From: the human T2T-CHM13v2.0 reference genome, Homo sapiens
Reading direction: 5' to 3' (one strand)
Assembly (NCBI RefSeq): GCF_009914755.1
Contig: NC_060925.1
DNA length: 64,000 nt
Shown: positions 8,161-61,175 of the stretch, in pieces
Position numbering within the stretch: position 1 is the first letter of the stretch
How the letters are laid out: every line of letters starts with the position of its first letter
Program-made: the position numbers and the translations under genes
Notes under the pieces: generated by a model
What the model was told of the DNA's origin: nothing
Database searches by the model: none
Seen by the model: only the letters and a program-made list of their open reading frames with translations

Positions 8161-8760
8161 TTTTTTTTTTTATTTTTTGAGACAGGGTCTTGCTTTGTCA
8201 CCCAGGCTACAGTGCAGTGGCATGATCATAGCTCACTGCAACCTCAACCTCCTAGGCTCAAGTGGTCCTGCCACCTCTGCCTCCTGCTACCTATGCTGGT
8301 CTAGGGCAGGGGTTGACAAAGGTTTTGTTTCTTTTGCAAAGAGCCAGATAATAAATATTGTTGGCTTTATAGTCTACAAGTTTTCCCTCATGACTACTTG
8401 GCTCTACCGTTGTAGCATGAAAGCAGCCACAGACAAAGTGTATACGAATGGGCATGGCTGTGTGCCAATAGAACTTTATTTGCAAAAGCAAATGGTGGGC
8501 CAGGCTGTAGTGCAGTGGCATGATCATAGCTCACTGCAGCCTTGACCTCCTAGGCTCAAGCGATCCTCCCATCTCAGTCTCTCAAGTAGCTGGGACCACA
8601 GGCATGTACCACCATTCCAGGTTAATTTTTTAATTTTTTTTGTAGAGATGAAGTCTCGTTATGTTGCCCAGGCTGGTCTTGAACTCCTGGGCTCAAGCGA
8701 TCCTTCTGTCTCAGCCTCCCCAGATACTGGGATTATAGGAGTGAGCAACCATGCCAGGCT
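8161..8760 (-). mobile_element. AluJ with an internal duplication and an inserted MER58A-containing segment
   Basis: AluJ diagnostics (GACAGGGTCT, CATAGCTCACTGCA, GGCTCAAGCGATCC); one TSD CCTGTAATTTT brackets the whole unit (8144/8761). Confidence 0.85.
8307..8503 (+). mobile_element. MER58A (truncated local copy)
   Basis: CAGGGGTTGACAAA start; GGCTGTGTGCCAATAGAACTTTATTTGCAAAA. Confidence 0.8.
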
Positions 8761-9235
8761 CCTGTAATTTTTAAAAATCCTACCCAATTTCCATAGGCAA
8801 AGGAAATACACAGGGGTTGCCCGCATGCCCACCTTCACACCATTTGGGAAGGAAAGCCTTGGTCTGATGCTCAGGCCTTTGCCTTTAACCTCTAAATTGC
8901 ATAGTCTCTGGTGACAACTGGGGCTAATCTTTTATATCTGTAAGTATCTCATGTCTTAGGAGAAAAAGTTGATTTCCAGAAATGGAGCGGTAAGGATGCT
9001 TAAAGAGGTGGGAATGGGAGGGGGCTGAGCACTAAAGGGCGCCTAGGATTTAGTGGGGCAGCAGAGATAGGTTTCTTGGAGGCAGGGCAAAATTGGGCAC
9101 AGATGAGACCAATAAAAGCTTTGACCCAATTAGCAGTAGTGGGAGCATGAAGGTCTGGTGGGGCCATGGGAAGAGCATGTGGTTCTTTCTCATTTAGTCC
9201 CAGTTTGGCTGTTGCTGGCTGTGTGAGCTTCAAAC

Positions 9236-9466
9236 CAAAGGTTGGCAAGCTACATCCCTGGGGCCAAATCTGGCCCACTACTTGCTTTTGTAAATAAAGT
9301 TTTATTGGCACACAGCCATGCCCATTTATGTACATTTTGTCTGCGGCTGCTTTTGTGCTACAGTGGCAGAGTCAAGTAGTCATGAGTGAAACCATGCGAA
9401 CCATAAAGCCAATAATACTTATTATCTGGCTCCTTGCAGAAAAAACAAAAACTTTGCTGACCCCTC
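9236..9466 (-). mobile_element. MER58A hAT MITE
   Basis: Both degenerate TIRs present; TTTTGTAAATAAAGTTTTATTGGCACACAGCC. Confidence 0.85.
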
Positions 9467-11369
9467 CCCTAGACCAGCATAGGAAGCACAGAATGGGGTT
9501 AGACAGAATTTATGTGGCACAATGTGAAAGGGATCAAGCCTGAGAGTGTGGCTCTGAAAGATGCTTATTTGCTGGTACCCTTGATGCTACATGGTGCTGT
9601 GGTTTTCTCATGTTCTCTTCCACCATCCACACACGAGGCCACACTCTCAGGCTCATACATGTATGTAGGGGTTGCTTCAGGAAGCTTTTAGAATAGATCT
9701 GAAAGTCCTGGCAAGAACAGAGTTCTCAGCATGTGCCCAAATCTATAGCACCTGTGCTAGACAAACTCACATCTGCCTCATTTTCATGCCACCCTGCAGG
9801 GTGGATGGAGCATTCCCTAGTTAACCAGTGAGATTTCCATGTTGGCAGAGTTGAGATTTAAACTTCAGGCAGCCCAACCCCAAAGGCTGTGCTCAAAAAA
9901 GGCAATTCCACAGCTTCTGCAAAGGGTTTTAAAAAATGTGTCTTGTCTCGCTCAAGGATTTGGAGGAGAGAGCAGCATTTTGGATCTTGCAGTGGCTTTG
10001 ATGCTGTTGCCCACCTTCCTCCCTCTCCAGGTCCTTCATCTCACTTAATAGTCCTGTGAGGAAGTTCATCCTCTTCTATTTCTAACCCCCCACCCAAATT
10101 TCTTTTACTTGACTTTGCCCCTGCTATAGCCCAAAATGGTAGGTGAGAAGTTGGTCTGGCCAGGCAGGCATGACCAATGGAGGCTGCCGCTGTCCATTCG
10201 TGCTGCCTGACCTCCTTCAGGTGGGAGCTTAAGGCCACACTCCCAGGCAGGGTATCTGCTGATATCGTAATATTCAGAAACATACAGGGGTTCAGCTGTG
10301 TCCAACATCTGAGGATGTTGGGGGGACCTCCGAGGGGATAGGCAGTACAGACTCGAGCTGGTATTCTTGTGGTCTCAGTGCAGCTGGACAAGTTCCCTTG
10401 TCTATATTCTCCTGGGTTCCCAAAATGTTTAACTGGACACCCTCTACCCCCTGACCTGGCATTTGGCTGCGTCTCTGCAGAGGGCTGTTGCCCCATCCCC
10501 TGGCCTGGCAGTCTATTGGTTGGGTGACCCCCAGCTTGCAGACCATAGCTGGTGGGGACTTCATCTATTGTGCCAAGTTCTGACTTGCTAAGTTGCGCGT
10601 GTGTTACGGAAGTTGATTTCCAACCCGTTTCATGTGGGCAGAAAGCATTTCTGCAGTTACCTTGCTTGACCCAAACAACTAAAGTCATTTTATCTAATAT
10701 GTCCTGCTGACGCTGCATGAATCCAGGCCCAGCTCGTGGAGGGTGGAAGGGAGATGAGGACAGGAAGGTGACAGGACTTCAGCACCTGGACTGCTGCTGC
10801 TTGGCACTGTTCCTGGGCTGCAGCTCTGATACCACCTGCAAGGCTCCTCGTTTGCATGATTAGTGAGGGATTGGTCCCCTGCACCACACCATGCAGAAAC
10901 TCAGACATGTGCAAGCCATGCCTGTCTGTCTGTCTCTCTCACCTGTCAGACTGGTACCTATTATCATGCTCCTTCTGAAGGCTGCCAGCTGAACCCCTTT
11001 CCCTGCCTTTTAAACAATATAGGGGTCCTTCTGAATATGGAGCCTAGCTACATTTGGAAGCCAATTGCCAAATTTATAACTAAGAGGGCAAGGGAACTAA
11101 CATTTATGGCATCTGTGGTGAGCTGTGCACATTGGGGACTTTTGCAAAAGTTAAACAGACGAAGATGAGCAAAGAAGCAAGCACACACTTCCTGTCATTC
11201 CGTCCATGGGAATGGGAGCACAGCTTTAAGGTTTCCTTGTATATCCCTGAGGGGTGGTGTGTAGGACCTGTTTCTTGCCTGGCTGTTTCTCCAGTGGAAA
11301 CAGTGTGTTCTGACATTCCAGAAAAAGATTCGCCATGGCGAACTGCTGGCAATTGGGCACAACCATAGG

Positions 11370-11580
11370 TGGCACTTATTGGGTACTTATTCTGGGATGG
11401 TTATTGTGCTACATTCTTTACATATTACCTTGTTTCACCTTGTTGCATCCTCAGAAGGCAAGTGAAATCATCCCCATTTTATAGATGAGAAAACTCGAGG
11501 CCCGTAAAGAGAAATATTTCTCTTAACTAGTTAGTAGTTGGGCCAGGATTCAAATTCAAGCCATCTGGATCTGAAGTCCC
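11370..11580 (-). mobile_element. MIR
   Basis: ATCCCCATTTTATAGATGAGAAAACT core. Confidence 0.7.
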
Positions 11581-11813
11581 TATTTATTCCTGTTCTTCCT
11601 TCCAGACTGTCCTCCAGAAATTAATCTCCAGAAATGTTGCTGAACATCTGTGCCAGCAAATGACTGTTTGTTGAATGAATGTGGAATCTGTTAACACTGG
11701 GGTGACAGTCACTCCTCATAACATGTTATGTTGGGTTGTGATTTCTGTTCATTGATGTCTTCTGTGTTAGACTCTAAGCTTCCTGAGGTCAACAACTGTT
11801 ATCTTGGTTGTCC

Positions 11814-12086
11814 TTTTTTTTTTTTTTTTGAGGTGGAGTCTCGCACTGTCGCCCAGGCTGGAGTGCAGTGGTGCGATCTCAGCTCACTGCAACCTCCGCC
11901 TCCTGGGTTCAAGTGATTCTTGTGCCTCAGCCTCCTGAGTAGCTGGGATTACAGGTTTGTGCCACCATGCCCAGCTAATTTTTGTATTTTTAGTAGAGAT
12001 GGGGTTTCACCATGTTGGTCAGTCTGGTCTCGAACTCCTGACCTCAGGTGATCTGCCTGCCTCTGCCTCCCAAAGTGTGCCCGGCC
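11814..12086 (-). mobile_element. AluS with ~25-bp deletion near the 5' end
   Basis: TSD TATCTTGGTTGTC on both sides; CCCAAAGTG joined directly to TGCCCGGCC. Confidence 0.9.
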
Positions 12087-59719: not shown

Positions 59720-59807
59720 GTGACATTGCTTCCTCATCTGCAGTGTGTCTGTGTCAAGTCTCCCTCTGCCTCCCTCTTGTCAGGGCACTTGTGATTGCCC
59801 TTAGGGC

Positions 59808-60218
59808 TGTATTAGTCTGCCCTGGCTGCCGTAACAAATACTTCAGACTGGGGGCTTAAACAACAGAAATTTATCGTCTCACAGTTTTGGAGGCTGGAAG
59901 TCTCAGGTCAAGGTGTCAGCGGTGTTAGTCTTTTCTGAGTCCGTTCTCCTTGGCTGTAGACAGCCGTCTTCTCCCTGTATCTTCACGTGATCTTCCGTCT
60001 GTGTGTGCCTGTGTCCTAATCTCTTCTTATAAGGACACCAGTCATGTTGGATCAGAGCCCATCCTCAGGACCTCATTTCAATGACCTCTTTAAAGACCTT
60101 ATCTCCAAACACAGTCGCACTCTGAGTTAGCTTTTCTGTATTCTTTCCCTGGTCAGCAATTTCTGGGGTTAGGATGTCAACATATGAATTTTGGGGGGAT
60201 ACAGTTTAGCTCATACCA
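59808..60218 (-). mobile_element. MLT1A-type LTR (nested)
   Basis: Exact TSD AGGGC; CAACATATGAATTTTGGGGGG. Confidence 0.85.
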
Positions 60219-60417
60219 AGGGCCCACTCAGATAATTCAGGATAATCTTTCCCATCTCAAGATCCTTAATGGCAAAGACTGCTTTTTCATTTGAGGTAAC
60301 AGTCACAGATTCCAGGGGTTAAGAACTGATTTCTTGGTATGGTTCTATTTCATCCTACTACAGGTATAGAAGAGAAAGAGTGAAGGATTCTGGAAACGTC
60401 AGGCTGCTGAACCACCT

Positions 60418-60772
60418 TCATATGGTTTGGCTCTGTGTTCCCACCCAAATCTCACCTTGAATTGTAATGATCCCCACGTGTCAAGGGCAGGACCAGGTGG
60501 AGATAATTGAATCATGGGGGCGGTTTTCCCTATGCTGTTCTCCTGATAGTGATCAAGTTCTCACAAGATCTGATGGTTTTATAAGGGGCTTCCCCCTTCG
60601 CGGGGCACTCATTCTCTCTCCTGCCACCCTATGAAGAGATGCCTTCTGCCATGATTGTCAGTTTCCTGAGGCCTCCCCAGCCATGAAGAACTGTGTCAAT
60701 TAAACCTCTTTTCGGTGTAAATTACCCAGTCTCTGGTATTTCTTCATAGCAGTGTGAGAACGGACTCATACA
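60418..60772 (+). mobile_element. THE1C/D solo LTR
   Basis: ATATGGTTTGGCTCTGTG...GAGAACGGACTCATACA; TSD CACCT/CATCT. Confidence 0.85.
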
Positions 60773-61059
60773 CATCTGGTGTGGGGAAAGGGGGCAGTGG
60801 AGAGGCTTCTGCAGGATGGAACCTTCCTGTTTTGAGATCCAGTGTTGGCTTCTTGAGCCTTACCCCCAAGACCTCTTTGTGGCCATGAACCGTTCTTTTT
60901 TTTCTGCAAACAATCTTTTTCCTGTTGCAATGATGCTCAGTCCACCATCTCCTGGTTTTCATTCTGTATCTCTGGAAGCTTCTCCTCAGAAGTATTGCTG
61001 GCTCCTGTTTTGCTGTTATTTTCAGGAATGAAAATATGGCTCAAGGTTCTGCCCTAGGC

Positions 61060-61175
61060 CCCTTCCCATGTTACAGACATGAAAATGGAGGCTTAGAGAG
61101 CTAAGTAACTTGGCTAAGGTCACTCGGGTAGCAAGAGGCAAAATCGTGACTGGACTCAAGATGCATGACTCAGAT
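61060..61175 (-). mobile_element. MIR
   Basis: CCCATGTTACAGACATGAAAATGGAGGCTTAGAGAGCTAAGTAACTTGGCTAAGGTCAC. Confidence 0.75.

What the first reader, a model, noticed from the sequence alone, without database searches (positions are those of the whole stretch)
8290..61167. Recurrent short-range copy-and-patch insertions: 5-6 events, all templated from 0.8-2.8 kb away, of very different ages
Seen in sequence: copy 8290-8503 <- 9270-9483 (inverted, ~85% by hand count); 26825-26930 <- 29643-29748 (~88%); 36055-36261 <- 38047-38245 (more diverged); 59510-59568 <- 61109-61167 (3 mismatches); 60124-60166 <- 58297-58339 (identical); and probably 52759-52890 <- 54969-55110. Three copies span repeat/flank or repeat/repeat junctions and one is unique DNA, so these cannot be independent transposon insertions. 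None has a poly-A tail or its own TSD. Established: short paired duplications and templated insertions arise from DSB repair (polymerase-theta end joining, SDSA, MMBIR/template switching). Inference: about one event per 11-13 kb, a narrow donor-distance window and a wide range of divergence suggest a long-lived local propensity for near-neighbour templated repair. I cannot tell whether the density exceeds genome background.
Basis: partly seen in the sequence, partly recalled or inferred. Interest (0 to 1): 0.8.

Follow-up and report, generated by a model that had tools for sequence, protein, structure and literature searches.

The report
Short nearby copy-paste repair scars
Five short stretches of this human intergenic/intronic DNA are copies of sequence lying 1 to 3 kb away, pasted in during repair or replication accidents over tens of millions of years; this kind of scar is already described, and whether this spot has unusually many is not settled.

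Summary
All six pairs exist at the stated coordinates. Five hold up as true local copies. For 8285/9270, 36055/38047, 59502/61101 and 58297/60124 the local partner is clearly the best match in the whole 3.1-Gb genome. For 26825/29643 it is only narrowly best.

Three acceptors interrupt older repeats whose paralogues lack the insert:
- One Alu-like element with intact target-site duplication is split by a 219-bp inverted copy plus an 82-bp flank duplication.
- One LTR-like repeat carries a 76-bp insert.
- Another LTR-like repeat has 3 bp replaced by 36 bp, with GAG and CTGG microhomology.

The sixth pair (52759/54969) is an old interspersed repeat with better matches elsewhere.

The events fit "repair-mediated duplications" (Pace et al. 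2009, PMC2671141). That class has donors under 5 kb away, mostly under 3 kb, a mean length of 162 bp, and microhomology, filler, deletion or TSD at the breakpoints. It arose continuously through primate evolution. The mechanism and the narrow donor distance are therefore known.

The "local propensity" claim is only suggestive. The window has 5 events in 64 kb, against 4 in 250 kb of random controls (nominal P=0.02). The window was chosen post hoc, and only 5 of 32 planned control windows could be fetched.

The parts
8143..8159 (.). Left target-site duplication of the host Alu-like element (tcctgtaattttcataa)
   Evidence: Read. It matches 8760-8776 at 15 of 17 positions, which bounds one single element at 8160-8759.
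8160..8759 (-). Host: one Alu-like SINE (antisense; poly-T at the left). It is 600 bp as it stands, and 299 bp without the insert and the flank duplication.
   Evidence: Searches place it in the in-window Alu family (D1, D4, D9). The name Alu is recalled; no repeat library was available.
8285..8503 (-). Event 1 acceptor: a 219-bp inverted copy of 9270-9488, 186 of 219 identical.
   Evidence: The first 14 nt (8285-8298) lie outside the stretch that other genomic family copies match, yet match the donor's flank at 13 of 14. The bases ccag at 8500-8503 are shared with the resuming Alu (microhomology).
8202..8283 (.). Event 1 flank duplication, first copy (host Alu segment); the second copy is 8500-8581.
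   Evidence: 71 of 82 identical. K2P is 0.152, close to the 0.174 of the insert, as expected if both arose in one event.
8500..8581 (.). Event 1 flank duplication, second copy.
9270..9488 (+). Event 1 donor: most of a MITE-like interspersed repeat plus at least 14 nt of its flank. The element continues to about 9228 beyond the copied part.
   Evidence: family of at least 1482 candidates; other copies are 72-77% identical over most of the length.
26825..26930 (+). Event 2 acceptor (probable): 35 bp of an older repeat plus the first 71 bp of an Alu, with unique flanks on both sides.
   Evidence: 93 of 106 identical to the donor. It shares CTTAG, the AAATA junction and TTGGGAGG with the donor, against 9 other loci.
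29643..29748 (+). Event 2 donor: the junction of an older interspersed repeat (29543-29677, recalled as Tigger1-like) with a full-length Alu.
36055..36261 (+). Event 3, one member of the pair (direction of copying not resolved).
   Evidence: 173 of 195 aligned, K2P 0.123. The left-hand neighbouring repeat ends near 36011, so the copy is not shown to lie inside a repeat.
38047..38245 (+). Event 3, other member. Its flanks have no other match in the genome.
   Evidence: 3 matches in all (self, the partner, and one 63-nt match).
59274..59717 (-). Host of event 4: an LTR-like repeat (recalled as MaLR THE1/MST type).
   Evidence: it aligns with the inverted copy at 60420-60772 and with 51960-52200, and both lack the insert.
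59502..59568 (+). Event 4 acceptor: 67 nt (61 of 67 identical; core 56 of 59) inside a 76-bp insert (59500-59575). CTCACTCA is repeated on both sides.
61101..61167 (+). Event 4 donor: an internal piece of a MIR-like element that runs on at both sides (about 61060-61190; the name is recalled).
58297..58339 (+). Event 5 donor: single-copy DNA.
   Evidence: the whole genome holds only this stretch and the acceptor.
60124..60166 (+). Event 5 acceptor: 36 bp (60127-60162) replace GTA of an LTR-like host. GAG (60124-60126) and CTGG (60163-60166) are shared by host and donor.
   Evidence: 9 of 9 aligned paralogues read CTGAG-GTA-CTGGGG without the insert. The match to the donor is 43 of 43.
52759..52890 (+). 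Rejected sixth pair (with 54969-55110): an old interspersed repeat, not a local copy.

Best explanation
Five separate germline accidents each copied 36 to 219 bp from a template 1.0 to 2.8 kb away on the same chromosome and sealed the copy into a break.

The likely course (inferred):
1. A double-strand break or a stalled replication fork exposes a 3' end.
2. That end primes on a few bases of microhomology on nearby single-stranded or transiently open DNA.
3. It is extended for tens to hundreds of bases and comes off.
4. It is joined back at the break through a second microhomology.

This leaves a short deletion (event 5), a short target duplication (event 4) or a long one (event 1). Copies come out direct or inverted according to which strand served as template.

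These are neutral scars in the upstream or first-intron region of KAZN, and I see no sign that they do anything. They belong to the class described as repair-mediated duplications (and 'doublets').

Shown: that they are local copies, that three of them are insertions into older repeats, and the junction features.

Inferred: the enzymology (SDSA-like synthesis, polymerase-theta end joining, or replicative template switching), and that the donor distance reflects the reach of resection or of the fork.
For: Local partner best in the genome:
- Event 4: 3 matches in all; partner 91% over 67 nt.
- Event 3: 3 matches; partner 82% over 204 nt.
- Event 5: 2 matches only; 43 of 43.
- Event 1: 247 bits against 119 for the next of 40 scored out of 1482 candidates.
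- Event 2: 133 against 119 bits.

Insertion into older repeats:
- Event 1 splits one Alu-like element bounded by a 15-of-17 target-site duplication. Insert and flank duplication have like divergence (K2P 0.174 and 0.152).
- Event 5: 9 of 9 aligned paralogues lack the 36 bp. Three paralogues show a 6-7 bp gap where the window has 38-39 bp.
- Event 4: 2 of 2 in-window paralogues lack the 76 bp.

Not transposition:
- The event 1 copy carries 14 nt of donor flank (13 of 14 identical) and lacks the element's other end.
- Event 2 carries a repeat/Alu junction.
- Event 4 is an internal piece of its donor element.

Junctions:
- GAG and CTGG plus a 3-bp deletion in event 5.
- ccag in event 1.
- CTCACTCA on both sides of event 4.

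The published class has the same anatomy. It comprises 824 proximal duplications. 753 of 1136 donors lie under 3 kb away, the mean length is 162 bp, and none of the 39 inspected had a poly-A tail. Microhomology is 2-9 nt, deletion 1-15 nt, TSD 4-21 nt, and both donor directions occur.
Against: - Event 2 is only narrowly better matched locally than elsewhere. The same repeat/Alu junction exists at 9 or more other loci, so it rests on proximity and three shared variants.
- For event 3 neither member is shown to interrupt a repeat, so copy and donor cannot be told apart.
- Microhomology is unclear at the left junction of event 1 and at both junctions of event 4.
- The 82-bp flank duplication of event 1 is well outside the 4-21 nt TSD range reported for the class. 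It fits a replicative template switch better than end joining.
- No orthologous empty sites could be examined, because no other primate genome was available. All ages rest on divergence alone.
- Repeat family names are recalled, not from a library.
Confidence: 0.85

Rival explanations
1. The window is a long-lived hot spot: something local (fragility, replication or chromatin context) has raised the rate of near-neighbour templated repair here for tens of millions of years.
For: The same pipeline was run on the window and on 5 random 50-kb windows of the same genome.
- At 55 bits or more, local-best ratio 1.2 or more, within 5 kb: 5 events in 64 kb against 4 in 250 kb. This is about 5-fold; binomial P=0.021.
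- At 42 bits or more, ratio 1.3 or more: 8 against 6, P=0.003.
- Exact repeats of 22 nt or more in low-copy DNA: 3 against 1.
- Two of the events lie within 3 kb of each other (58.3-61.2 kb).
Against: - The window was picked because a reader saw these pairs, so the P values are post hoc.
- With a background near 1 per 64 kb, Poisson chance of 5 or more is 0.004-0.02 per window. That predicts hundreds of such windows in a 3.1-Gb genome.
- Thresholds were set after seeing the events.
- The 8-event count includes the sixth pair, which the genome search refutes.
- Of the 4 control events, one looks like an LTR pair and one is a 90-bp-apart doublet, so the ratio moves with the definition.
- The controls are lower in G+C (0.35-0.42 against 0.44), and only 5 of 32 drawn windows could be fetched.
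- Pace et al. saw no tendency of the 824 events to cluster.
- Narrow donor distance and mixed ages are properties of the class everywhere, not evidence for a local cause.
Confidence: 0.2
2. The copies arose by replicative template switching (fork stalling and template switching, or microhomology-mediated break-induced replication) rather than by end joining at a two-ended break. This rivals the enzymology only, not the reading that they are templated insertions.
For: Event 1 is an inverted copy flanked by an 82-bp duplication of the host, of the same age as the insert. That is what a nascent strand gives if it leaves its template, copies the opposite strand 1 kb away and returns 82 nt behind its point of departure. 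There is a 4-nt microhomology at the return junction.
Against: Events 4 and 5 have a short duplication or a 3-bp deletion with microhomology on both sides. Both models explain these equally well. Nothing in the sequence separates the two for events 2 and 3.
Confidence: 0.35
3. The pairs are chance neighbours: independent insertions of the same interspersed repeat families, or the two LTRs of single retroelements.
For: - True for the sixth pair.
- The event 1 sequence belongs to a family with at least 1482 candidates.
- The event 2 junction recurs at 9 or more other loci.
- The host repeats of events 4 and 5 are LTR-like, and direct spacing of 1.6-2.8 kb is what an LTR pair would show.
Against: - Partners are far more alike than other family members.
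- Event 5 is single-copy DNA.
- The copies are fragments that carry flank or junctions and lack element ends.
- None of the five is a full LTR.
- The two LTR-like hosts at 59274-59717 and 60420-60772 are inverted relative to each other.
- Proximity of all five is improbable by chance.
Confidence: 0.04
4. The pairs are the last recognisable islands of larger tandem or segmental duplications whose remainder has decayed or been deleted.
For: Events 4 and 5 interleave (58297, 59502, 60124, 61101) with like spacing of 1827 and 1599 bp, as two copies of a unit of about 1.7 kb would.
Against: - Event 5 is 43 of 43 identical, yet its flanks show no similarity at all.
- The self-BLAST finds no further collinear matches between the two putative units.
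- The acceptors are clean insertions into repeats whose two halves are contiguous in paralogues.
- The two events differ in divergence, 0% against 5-9%.
Confidence: 0.04

Closest known systems
Repair-mediated duplications, RDs (Pace, Sen, Batzer, Feschotte 2009, PLoS Genet, PMC2671141)
   Same: - Short (mean 162 bp, up to 619 bp) non-tandem copies of DNA lying under 5 kb away. 753 of 1136 donors lie under 3 kb, with an apparent peak near 1.2 kb.
- Found as insertions inside transposable elements, with no poly-A tail.
- Microhomology, filler, small deletions or TSDs at the junctions, and donors on either side.
- Made continuously through primate evolution, with divergence rising with age.
- Events 1, 4 and 5 here have the same anatomy.
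   Different: - None of the five is in their Table S1: no chr1 row between 14.07 and 14.16 Mb of hg18. The conversion of the window to hg18 is my own estimate from recalled gene coordinates.
- Their pipeline would have dropped them. The inserts of events 1, 2 and 4 are themselves repeat-derived, and event 5 is under 50 bp.
- The 82-bp flank duplication of event 1 exceeds their TSD range of 4-21 nt.
'Doublets', short paired duplications (Thomas et al. 2004, PNAS)
   Same: Pairs of short exact or near-exact matches lying close together. Event 5 (43 identical bases, same strand, 1.8 kb apart) is of this kind. [quoted passage not shown]
   Different: The paper is not held. What I know of its distance peak near 1 kb is recalled. 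Doublets were defined by exact matches of 25-100 bp, so events 1-4, which are older and longer, fall outside the definition.
Polymerase-theta-mediated end joining with templated insertions
   Same: Microhomology on both sides of a copied stretch taken from near the break, in direct or inverted orientation (established knowledge; search listing only). Event 5 fits best: 36 bp, with 3- and 4-nt microhomologies.
   Different: As I recall, typical templated inserts in that literature are a few to a few tens of bases, taken from within tens to hundreds of bases of the break. Here the inserts reach 219 bp and donors lie 1-2.8 kb away. The enzyme cannot be inferred from sequence.
Replicative template switching (FoSTeS/MMBIR; short-range template switches of Loytynoja and Goldman 2017, PMC5453318)
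   Same: The nascent strand switches to a nearby template at microhomology and returns. This gives inverted copies and flanking duplications, as in event 1.
   Different: The short-range events of that work replace sequence over tens of bases (search listing and start of abstract only). FoSTeS/MMBIR is usually invoked for rearrangements of kilobases to megabases. Event 1 lies between these scales.

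Membership tests
Repair-mediated duplication (Pace et al. 2009) | The acceptor is an insertion that interrupts an older transposable element. 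| tested here: met
   Met for events 1, 4 and 5. Not shown for event 2 (unique flanks) or event 3.
Repair-mediated duplication (Pace et al. 2009) | The inserted sequence is at least 50 bp and is found at only one other place in the genome. | tested here: inconclusive
   Met for events 3 and 4. Event 5 has one other copy but only 36-43 bp. Events 1 and 2 are repeat-derived with many weaker matches, and the local partner is best.
Repair-mediated duplication (Pace et al. 2009) | The donor is on the same chromosome within 5 kb and more than 50 bp away (not tandem). | tested here: met
   Distances are 985, 2818, 1992, 1599 and 1827 bp.
Repair-mediated duplication (Pace et al. 2009) | No poly-A/T tail of 5 or more bases added at an end of the insert. 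| tested here: met
   The ends were read. The T-run at the right end of event 3 and the AAAA at the left end of event 2 are present in the partner too, so they were not added.
Repair-mediated duplication (Pace et al. 2009) | Breakpoints show microhomology, filler, a deletion or a short TSD. | tested here: met
   Event 5: GAG and CTGG, with a 3-bp deletion. Event 1: ccag plus an 82-bp duplication. Event 4: CTCACTCA on both sides. Events 2 and 3 are not resolved.
Repair-mediated duplication (Pace et al. 2009) | An empty acceptor site in outgroup species. | not testable with these tools
Two LTRs of one retroelement | Two full-length LTRs in direct orientation around an internal region, with one TSD. 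| tested here: not met
   The copies are 36-219-bp fragments. Event 1 is inverted. Events 4 and 5 are inserts inside LTR-like repeats, not the repeats themselves.
Independent transposon or SINE insertion | The copy runs from end to end of the element, with the family's own TSD or poly-A. | tested here: not met
   Event 1 lacks one element end and carries donor flank. Event 2 holds 71 bp of an Alu plus 35 bp of another repeat. Event 4 is an internal piece. Event 5 is single-copy DNA.
Polymerase-theta templated insertion | Dependence on POLQ; microhomology at both the priming and the rejoining junction. | not testable with these tools
   Microhomology at both junctions is seen for event 5 only. 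The enzyme cannot be read from sequence.

The most novel reading that the evidence does not exclude
This stretch at the 5' end of KAZN (chr1p36.21) is a persistent hot spot. It would make near-neighbour templated insertions at roughly 5 to 8 times the genome's background rate over some 40 million years. Events range from an Alu split by an inverted copy with an 82-bp flank duplication to a 43-bp perfect doublet that may be human-specific or still polymorphic. That would imply a stable local cause of breaks or fork stalling that outlives the turnover of recombination hot spots.
Probability: 0.2. Interest if true: 0.5.

Novelty: new member of a known kind. Interest (0 to 1): 0.25.

Why it matters
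The five events are clean, datable examples of a little-studied mutational process that duplicates short pieces of DNA, which can include regulatory sites, a kilobase or so from their source.

The published catalogue appears to miss all five. Three inserts are themselves repeat-derived and one is under 50 bp. This suggests that the 824 catalogued events are a small fraction of the true number. My controls gave about one event per 60 kb, against about one per 3.7 Mb in the catalogue.

If a fixed pipeline run over complete genomes showed real hot spots, it would point to stable local sources of germline breaks. As it stands, the finding is an ordinary instance of a known process.

Tried and rejected
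- **Sixth pair rejected.** Better matches lie elsewhere in the genome.
- **Tandem-duplication remnant for the interleaved events 4 and 5 rejected.** There is no collinear similarity between the putative units.
- **LTR-pair and independent-insertion readings rejected**.
- **Direction of event 3 not resolved.** The repeat to the left of 36055 ends naturally near 36011, so the copy is not shown to interrupt it. The other member has unique flanks.
- **Naming the repeat upstream of the event 2 donor failed.** A Pfam scan of 3 translated copies gave 0 families (one search failed on a stop codon and was corrected). The name Tigger1-like is therefore recalled only.
- **Recombination-hot-spot motif.** CCNCCNTNNCCNC has 6 matches against 1.79 expected (1 of 100 shuffles reached 6). 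The nearest lies about 1.8-2 kb from any copy, and none is at a breakpoint.
- **Control sampling cut short.** 32 random 50-kb windows were drawn.
- **Thomas et al. 2004 is not held**.
- **A further candidate, 33107-33155 / 35137-35184** (49 nt, 84%), was not recovered by the genome search, which found only the query itself. It remains weak.

Full report
**The observation**

- 8290-8503 vs 9270-9483: inverted, 182 of 214 identical.
- 26825-26930 vs 29643-29748: 93 of 106.
- 36055-36261 vs 38047-38245: 173 of 195 aligned columns.
- 59510-59568 vs 61109-61167: 56 of 59.
- 60124-60166 vs 58297-58339: 43 of 43.
- 52759-52890 vs 54969-55110: 100 of 124.

The repeat finder and a self-BLAST of the window (442 pairs) recover the first five independently. 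In the self-BLAST, every low-copy pair with 80% identity or more and 75 bits or more lies 0.98 to 2.8 kb apart. The long-range low-copy pairs are all 70-84% matches of old interspersed repeats.

**Are there better donors elsewhere?**

The window's own 3.1-Gb assembly could be searched.
- Event 4 (59502-59568): 3 matches in all, namely itself, the local partner (91% over 67 nt), and an unrelated 30-nt match to the flank.
- Event 3 (36055-36261): itself, the partner (82% over 204 nt) and one 55-nt match.
- Event 5: itself and the partner only.
- Event 1 (8285-8503): the sequence belongs to an interspersed family (1482 candidates, 40 scored). The partner scores 247 bits (85% over all 219 nt), against 119 bits for the next.
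- Event 2 (26825-26930): the partner is only narrowly best, 133 against 119 bits.
- Sixth pair: eight other places match at 72-84%, and the local partner is not among the 9 matches.

The tool warns that only the best candidates are scored and that very common words are skipped. 'No better donor' therefore holds within that limit.

**Event 1**

Reading 7980-9600 shows one Alu-like element in antisense at 8160-8759. It is bounded by tcctgtaattttcataa (8143-8159) and tcctgtaatttttaaaa (8760-8776), which match at 15 of 17 positions.

Inside it lies the 219-bp inverted copy (8285-8503). An 82-bp segment of the host is present on both sides, at 8202-8283 and 8500-8581 (71 of 82 identical). Without the insert and the duplication the element measures 299 bp.

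Insert and flank duplication have like divergence (K2P 0.174 and 0.152), as expected of one event.

The first 14 nt of the copy lie outside the part that other family members match (their alignments start at query position 15 or later). Yet they match the donor's flank at 13 of 14. The donor element runs on about 40 nt beyond the copied part. The bases ccag at 8500-8503 are common to the end of the copy and to the resuming host.

This is not a transposition. It is a templated insertion with a long target duplication.

**Event 2**

The copy holds 35 bp of an older repeat followed by the first 71 bp of an Alu.

I fetched ten genomic look-alikes. Nine of them share the same older repeat upstream and carry an Alu at the same site to within 3 nt, but the Alus are of visibly different subfamilies. 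So the junction as such is not unique. It is a recurrent Alu landing site in that repeat.

The acceptor at 26825 has unique flanks. It keeps only 106 bp across the junction, and it shares three variants with the donor against the nine other loci: CTTAG, AAATA at the junction, and TTGGGAGG. With a donor 2.8 kb away, a local copy is much the more likely reading, but this is the weakest of the five.

**Event 3**

The two members are 88.7% identical over aligned columns, with several indels. Both ends of the similarity are sharp.

The member at 38047 has flanks found nowhere else. The member at 36055 lies 44 bp beyond the natural end of a neighbouring repeat. I cannot say which is the copy.

**Events 4 and 5**

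- **Event 4.** The host at 59274-59717 is an LTR-like repeat. Two in-window paralogues (60420-60772, inverted, and 51960-52200) lack a 76-bp stretch (59500-59575), which contains the 67-nt match to 61101-67. CTCACTCA stands on both sides of the insert. The donor is an internal piece of an element that continues on both sides.
- **Event 5.** The acceptor interrupts another LTR-like repeat (1066 candidates). In three paralogues the two halves are 6-7 bp apart where the window has 38-39 bp. In an alignment, 9 of 9 paralogues read CTGAG-GTA-CTGGGG where the window reads CTGAG, then 36 bp, then CTGGGG. So 36 bp replaced GTA. GAG on the left and CTGG on the right are shared by host and donor.

The two events interleave. 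They differ in divergence (0% against 5-9%) and have no collinear similarity between them, so they are separate events and not relics of one tandem duplication.

**Ages**

K2P distances are as follows.

| Event | K2P |
|---|---|
| 1 | 0.174 |
| 2 | 0.137 |
| 3 | 0.123 |
| 4 | 0.053-0.096 |
| 5 | 0 (95% upper bound 6.7%) |

At the rate used by Pace et al. (2.2e-9 per site per year per lineage) these give about 40, 31, 28, 12-22 and under 15 million years. A slower rate would double these figures. Four events are thus of broadly similar, old age and one is young.

**What is known**

Pace, Sen, Batzer and Feschotte (2009; PMC2671141) describe exactly this. I read the abstract, Results parts 1-2, sections 11 and 14, part 1 of Table S1, and two searches of that table.

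They looked for insertions of at least 50 bp inside transposable elements whose sequence occurs at one other place, and found 1136. Their main results:
- Donor distance: 824 had the donor within 5 kb and 753 within 3 kb, with an apparent peak near 1.2 kb.
- Length: mean 162 bp, maximum 619 bp.
- Tails: none of the 39 proximal events inspected had a poly-A tail.
- Junctions: microhomology 2-9 nt, deletions 1-15 nt, filler 1-68 nt, TSDs 4-21 nt.
- Timing: the events date from all stages of primate evolution, with divergence rising with age.
- Clustering: no tendency to cluster was seen.

They link the class to the 'doublets' of Thomas et al. 2004. That paper is not held.

Table S1 has no chr1 row between 14.07 and 14.16 Mb of hg18. 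The conversion of the window to hg18 is my estimate from recalled coordinates. Their filters would have removed all five events. The inserts of events 1, 2 and 4 are repeat-derived, event 5 is under 50 bp, and event 3 is not inside a repeat.

**Density**

One pipeline was applied alike to the window and the controls. It used blastn with word size 9, kept pairs within 5 kb, and required the pair score to be at least 1.2 times the best score of either member against everything else in the pool.

- At 55 bits or more: 5 events in the 64-kb window against 4 in 250 kb (per control window 0, 2, 0, 0, 2). Of the 4, one is a 423-bp, 74% direct pair with family members elsewhere (probably two LTRs of one element), and one is a 43-bp perfect pair only 90 bp apart. 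Binomial P=0.021.
- At 42 bits or more and ratio 1.3 or more: 8 against 6 (P=0.003). The 8 include the refuted sixth pair and two weak candidates.
- Exact repeats of 22 nt or more in low-copy DNA: 3 against 1.

The excess is about 5-fold and nominally significant. It does not carry weight for these reasons:
- The thresholds were chosen after seeing the events.
- The controls are few and lower in G+C.
- The window was selected because the pairs were seen.
- With about one event per 64 kb as background, hundreds of windows with five or more are expected in the genome.

No recombination-motif match lies at any breakpoint.

**Verdict**

- The narrow donor distance and the mixed ages are properties of the class, not of this place.
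- The local-propensity idea is open, with modest odds.
- Event 1, with its 82-bp flank duplication around an inverted insert, is the one feature that stretches the published description. It points to a replicative template switch.

Repeat family names used here (Alu, MIR-like, MaLR/LTR-like, Tigger1-like, L1-like) are recalled. The tools show only that these stretches are multi-copy.

Noticed in passing
window 29543-29748; loci L004-L011 and L013 (about positions 200-500 of each, oriented as): 9 of 10 fetched genomic look-alikes carry an Alu inserted at the same site, to within 3 nt, of the same older interspersed repeat, just after CCCTTAAGAATTATGCTAAAT. The Alus are of visibly different subfamilies. 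This looks like a recurrent landing site (TT/AAGA) for Alu retrotransposition in that repeat family. The search was seeded with such a junction, so the count says nothing about frequency.
   Followed up: partly
window 8202-8283 and 8500-8581: The target duplication flanking the event 1 insert is 82 bp, far longer than the 4-21 nt reported for this class of event.
   Followed up: partly
window 36008-36025 and 36041-36058: The 18-nt string TATAGTTAAATCCTAGGA occurs twice, 33 bp apart, directly at the left edge of the event 3 member. It may be a small tandem duplication tied to that junction.
   Followed up: no
window 33107-33155 and 35137-35184: A further direct pair, 49 nt at 84%, 2030 bp apart, in DNA with no other match in the pool. 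The genome search found only the query itself. It may be a sixth, older event or chance.
   Followed up: partly
window 50760-50805 and 50904-50949: An inverted pair of 46 nt at 83%, only 144 bp apart.
   Followed up: no
window 59274-59717 and 60420-60772: Two LTR-like repeats of one family lie in inverted orientation 0.7 kb apart (75-78% identical). They bracket a third LTR-like repeat that hosts event 5. The RefSeq 'silencer' at 59029-59261 lies just left of them.
   Followed up: no
control loci L030:9505-9547 and 9595-9637; L048:5949-5987 and 6769-6807; L045:8284-8449 and L046:1500-1674: The random control windows hold events of the same kind: a 43-bp perfect pair 90 bp apart, a 39-nt inverted pair at 92% 820 bp apart, and a 179-nt inverted pair at 74% 3.2 kb apart. 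The process is therefore seen at roughly one event per 60-125 kb outside this window.
   Followed up: no
window 6225, 13306, 19183, 19685, 53950, 63007: The 13-mer CCNCCNTNNCCNC occurs 6 times against 1.79 expected (1 of 100 shuffles reached 6). None lies at a breakpoint of the events.
   Followed up: no
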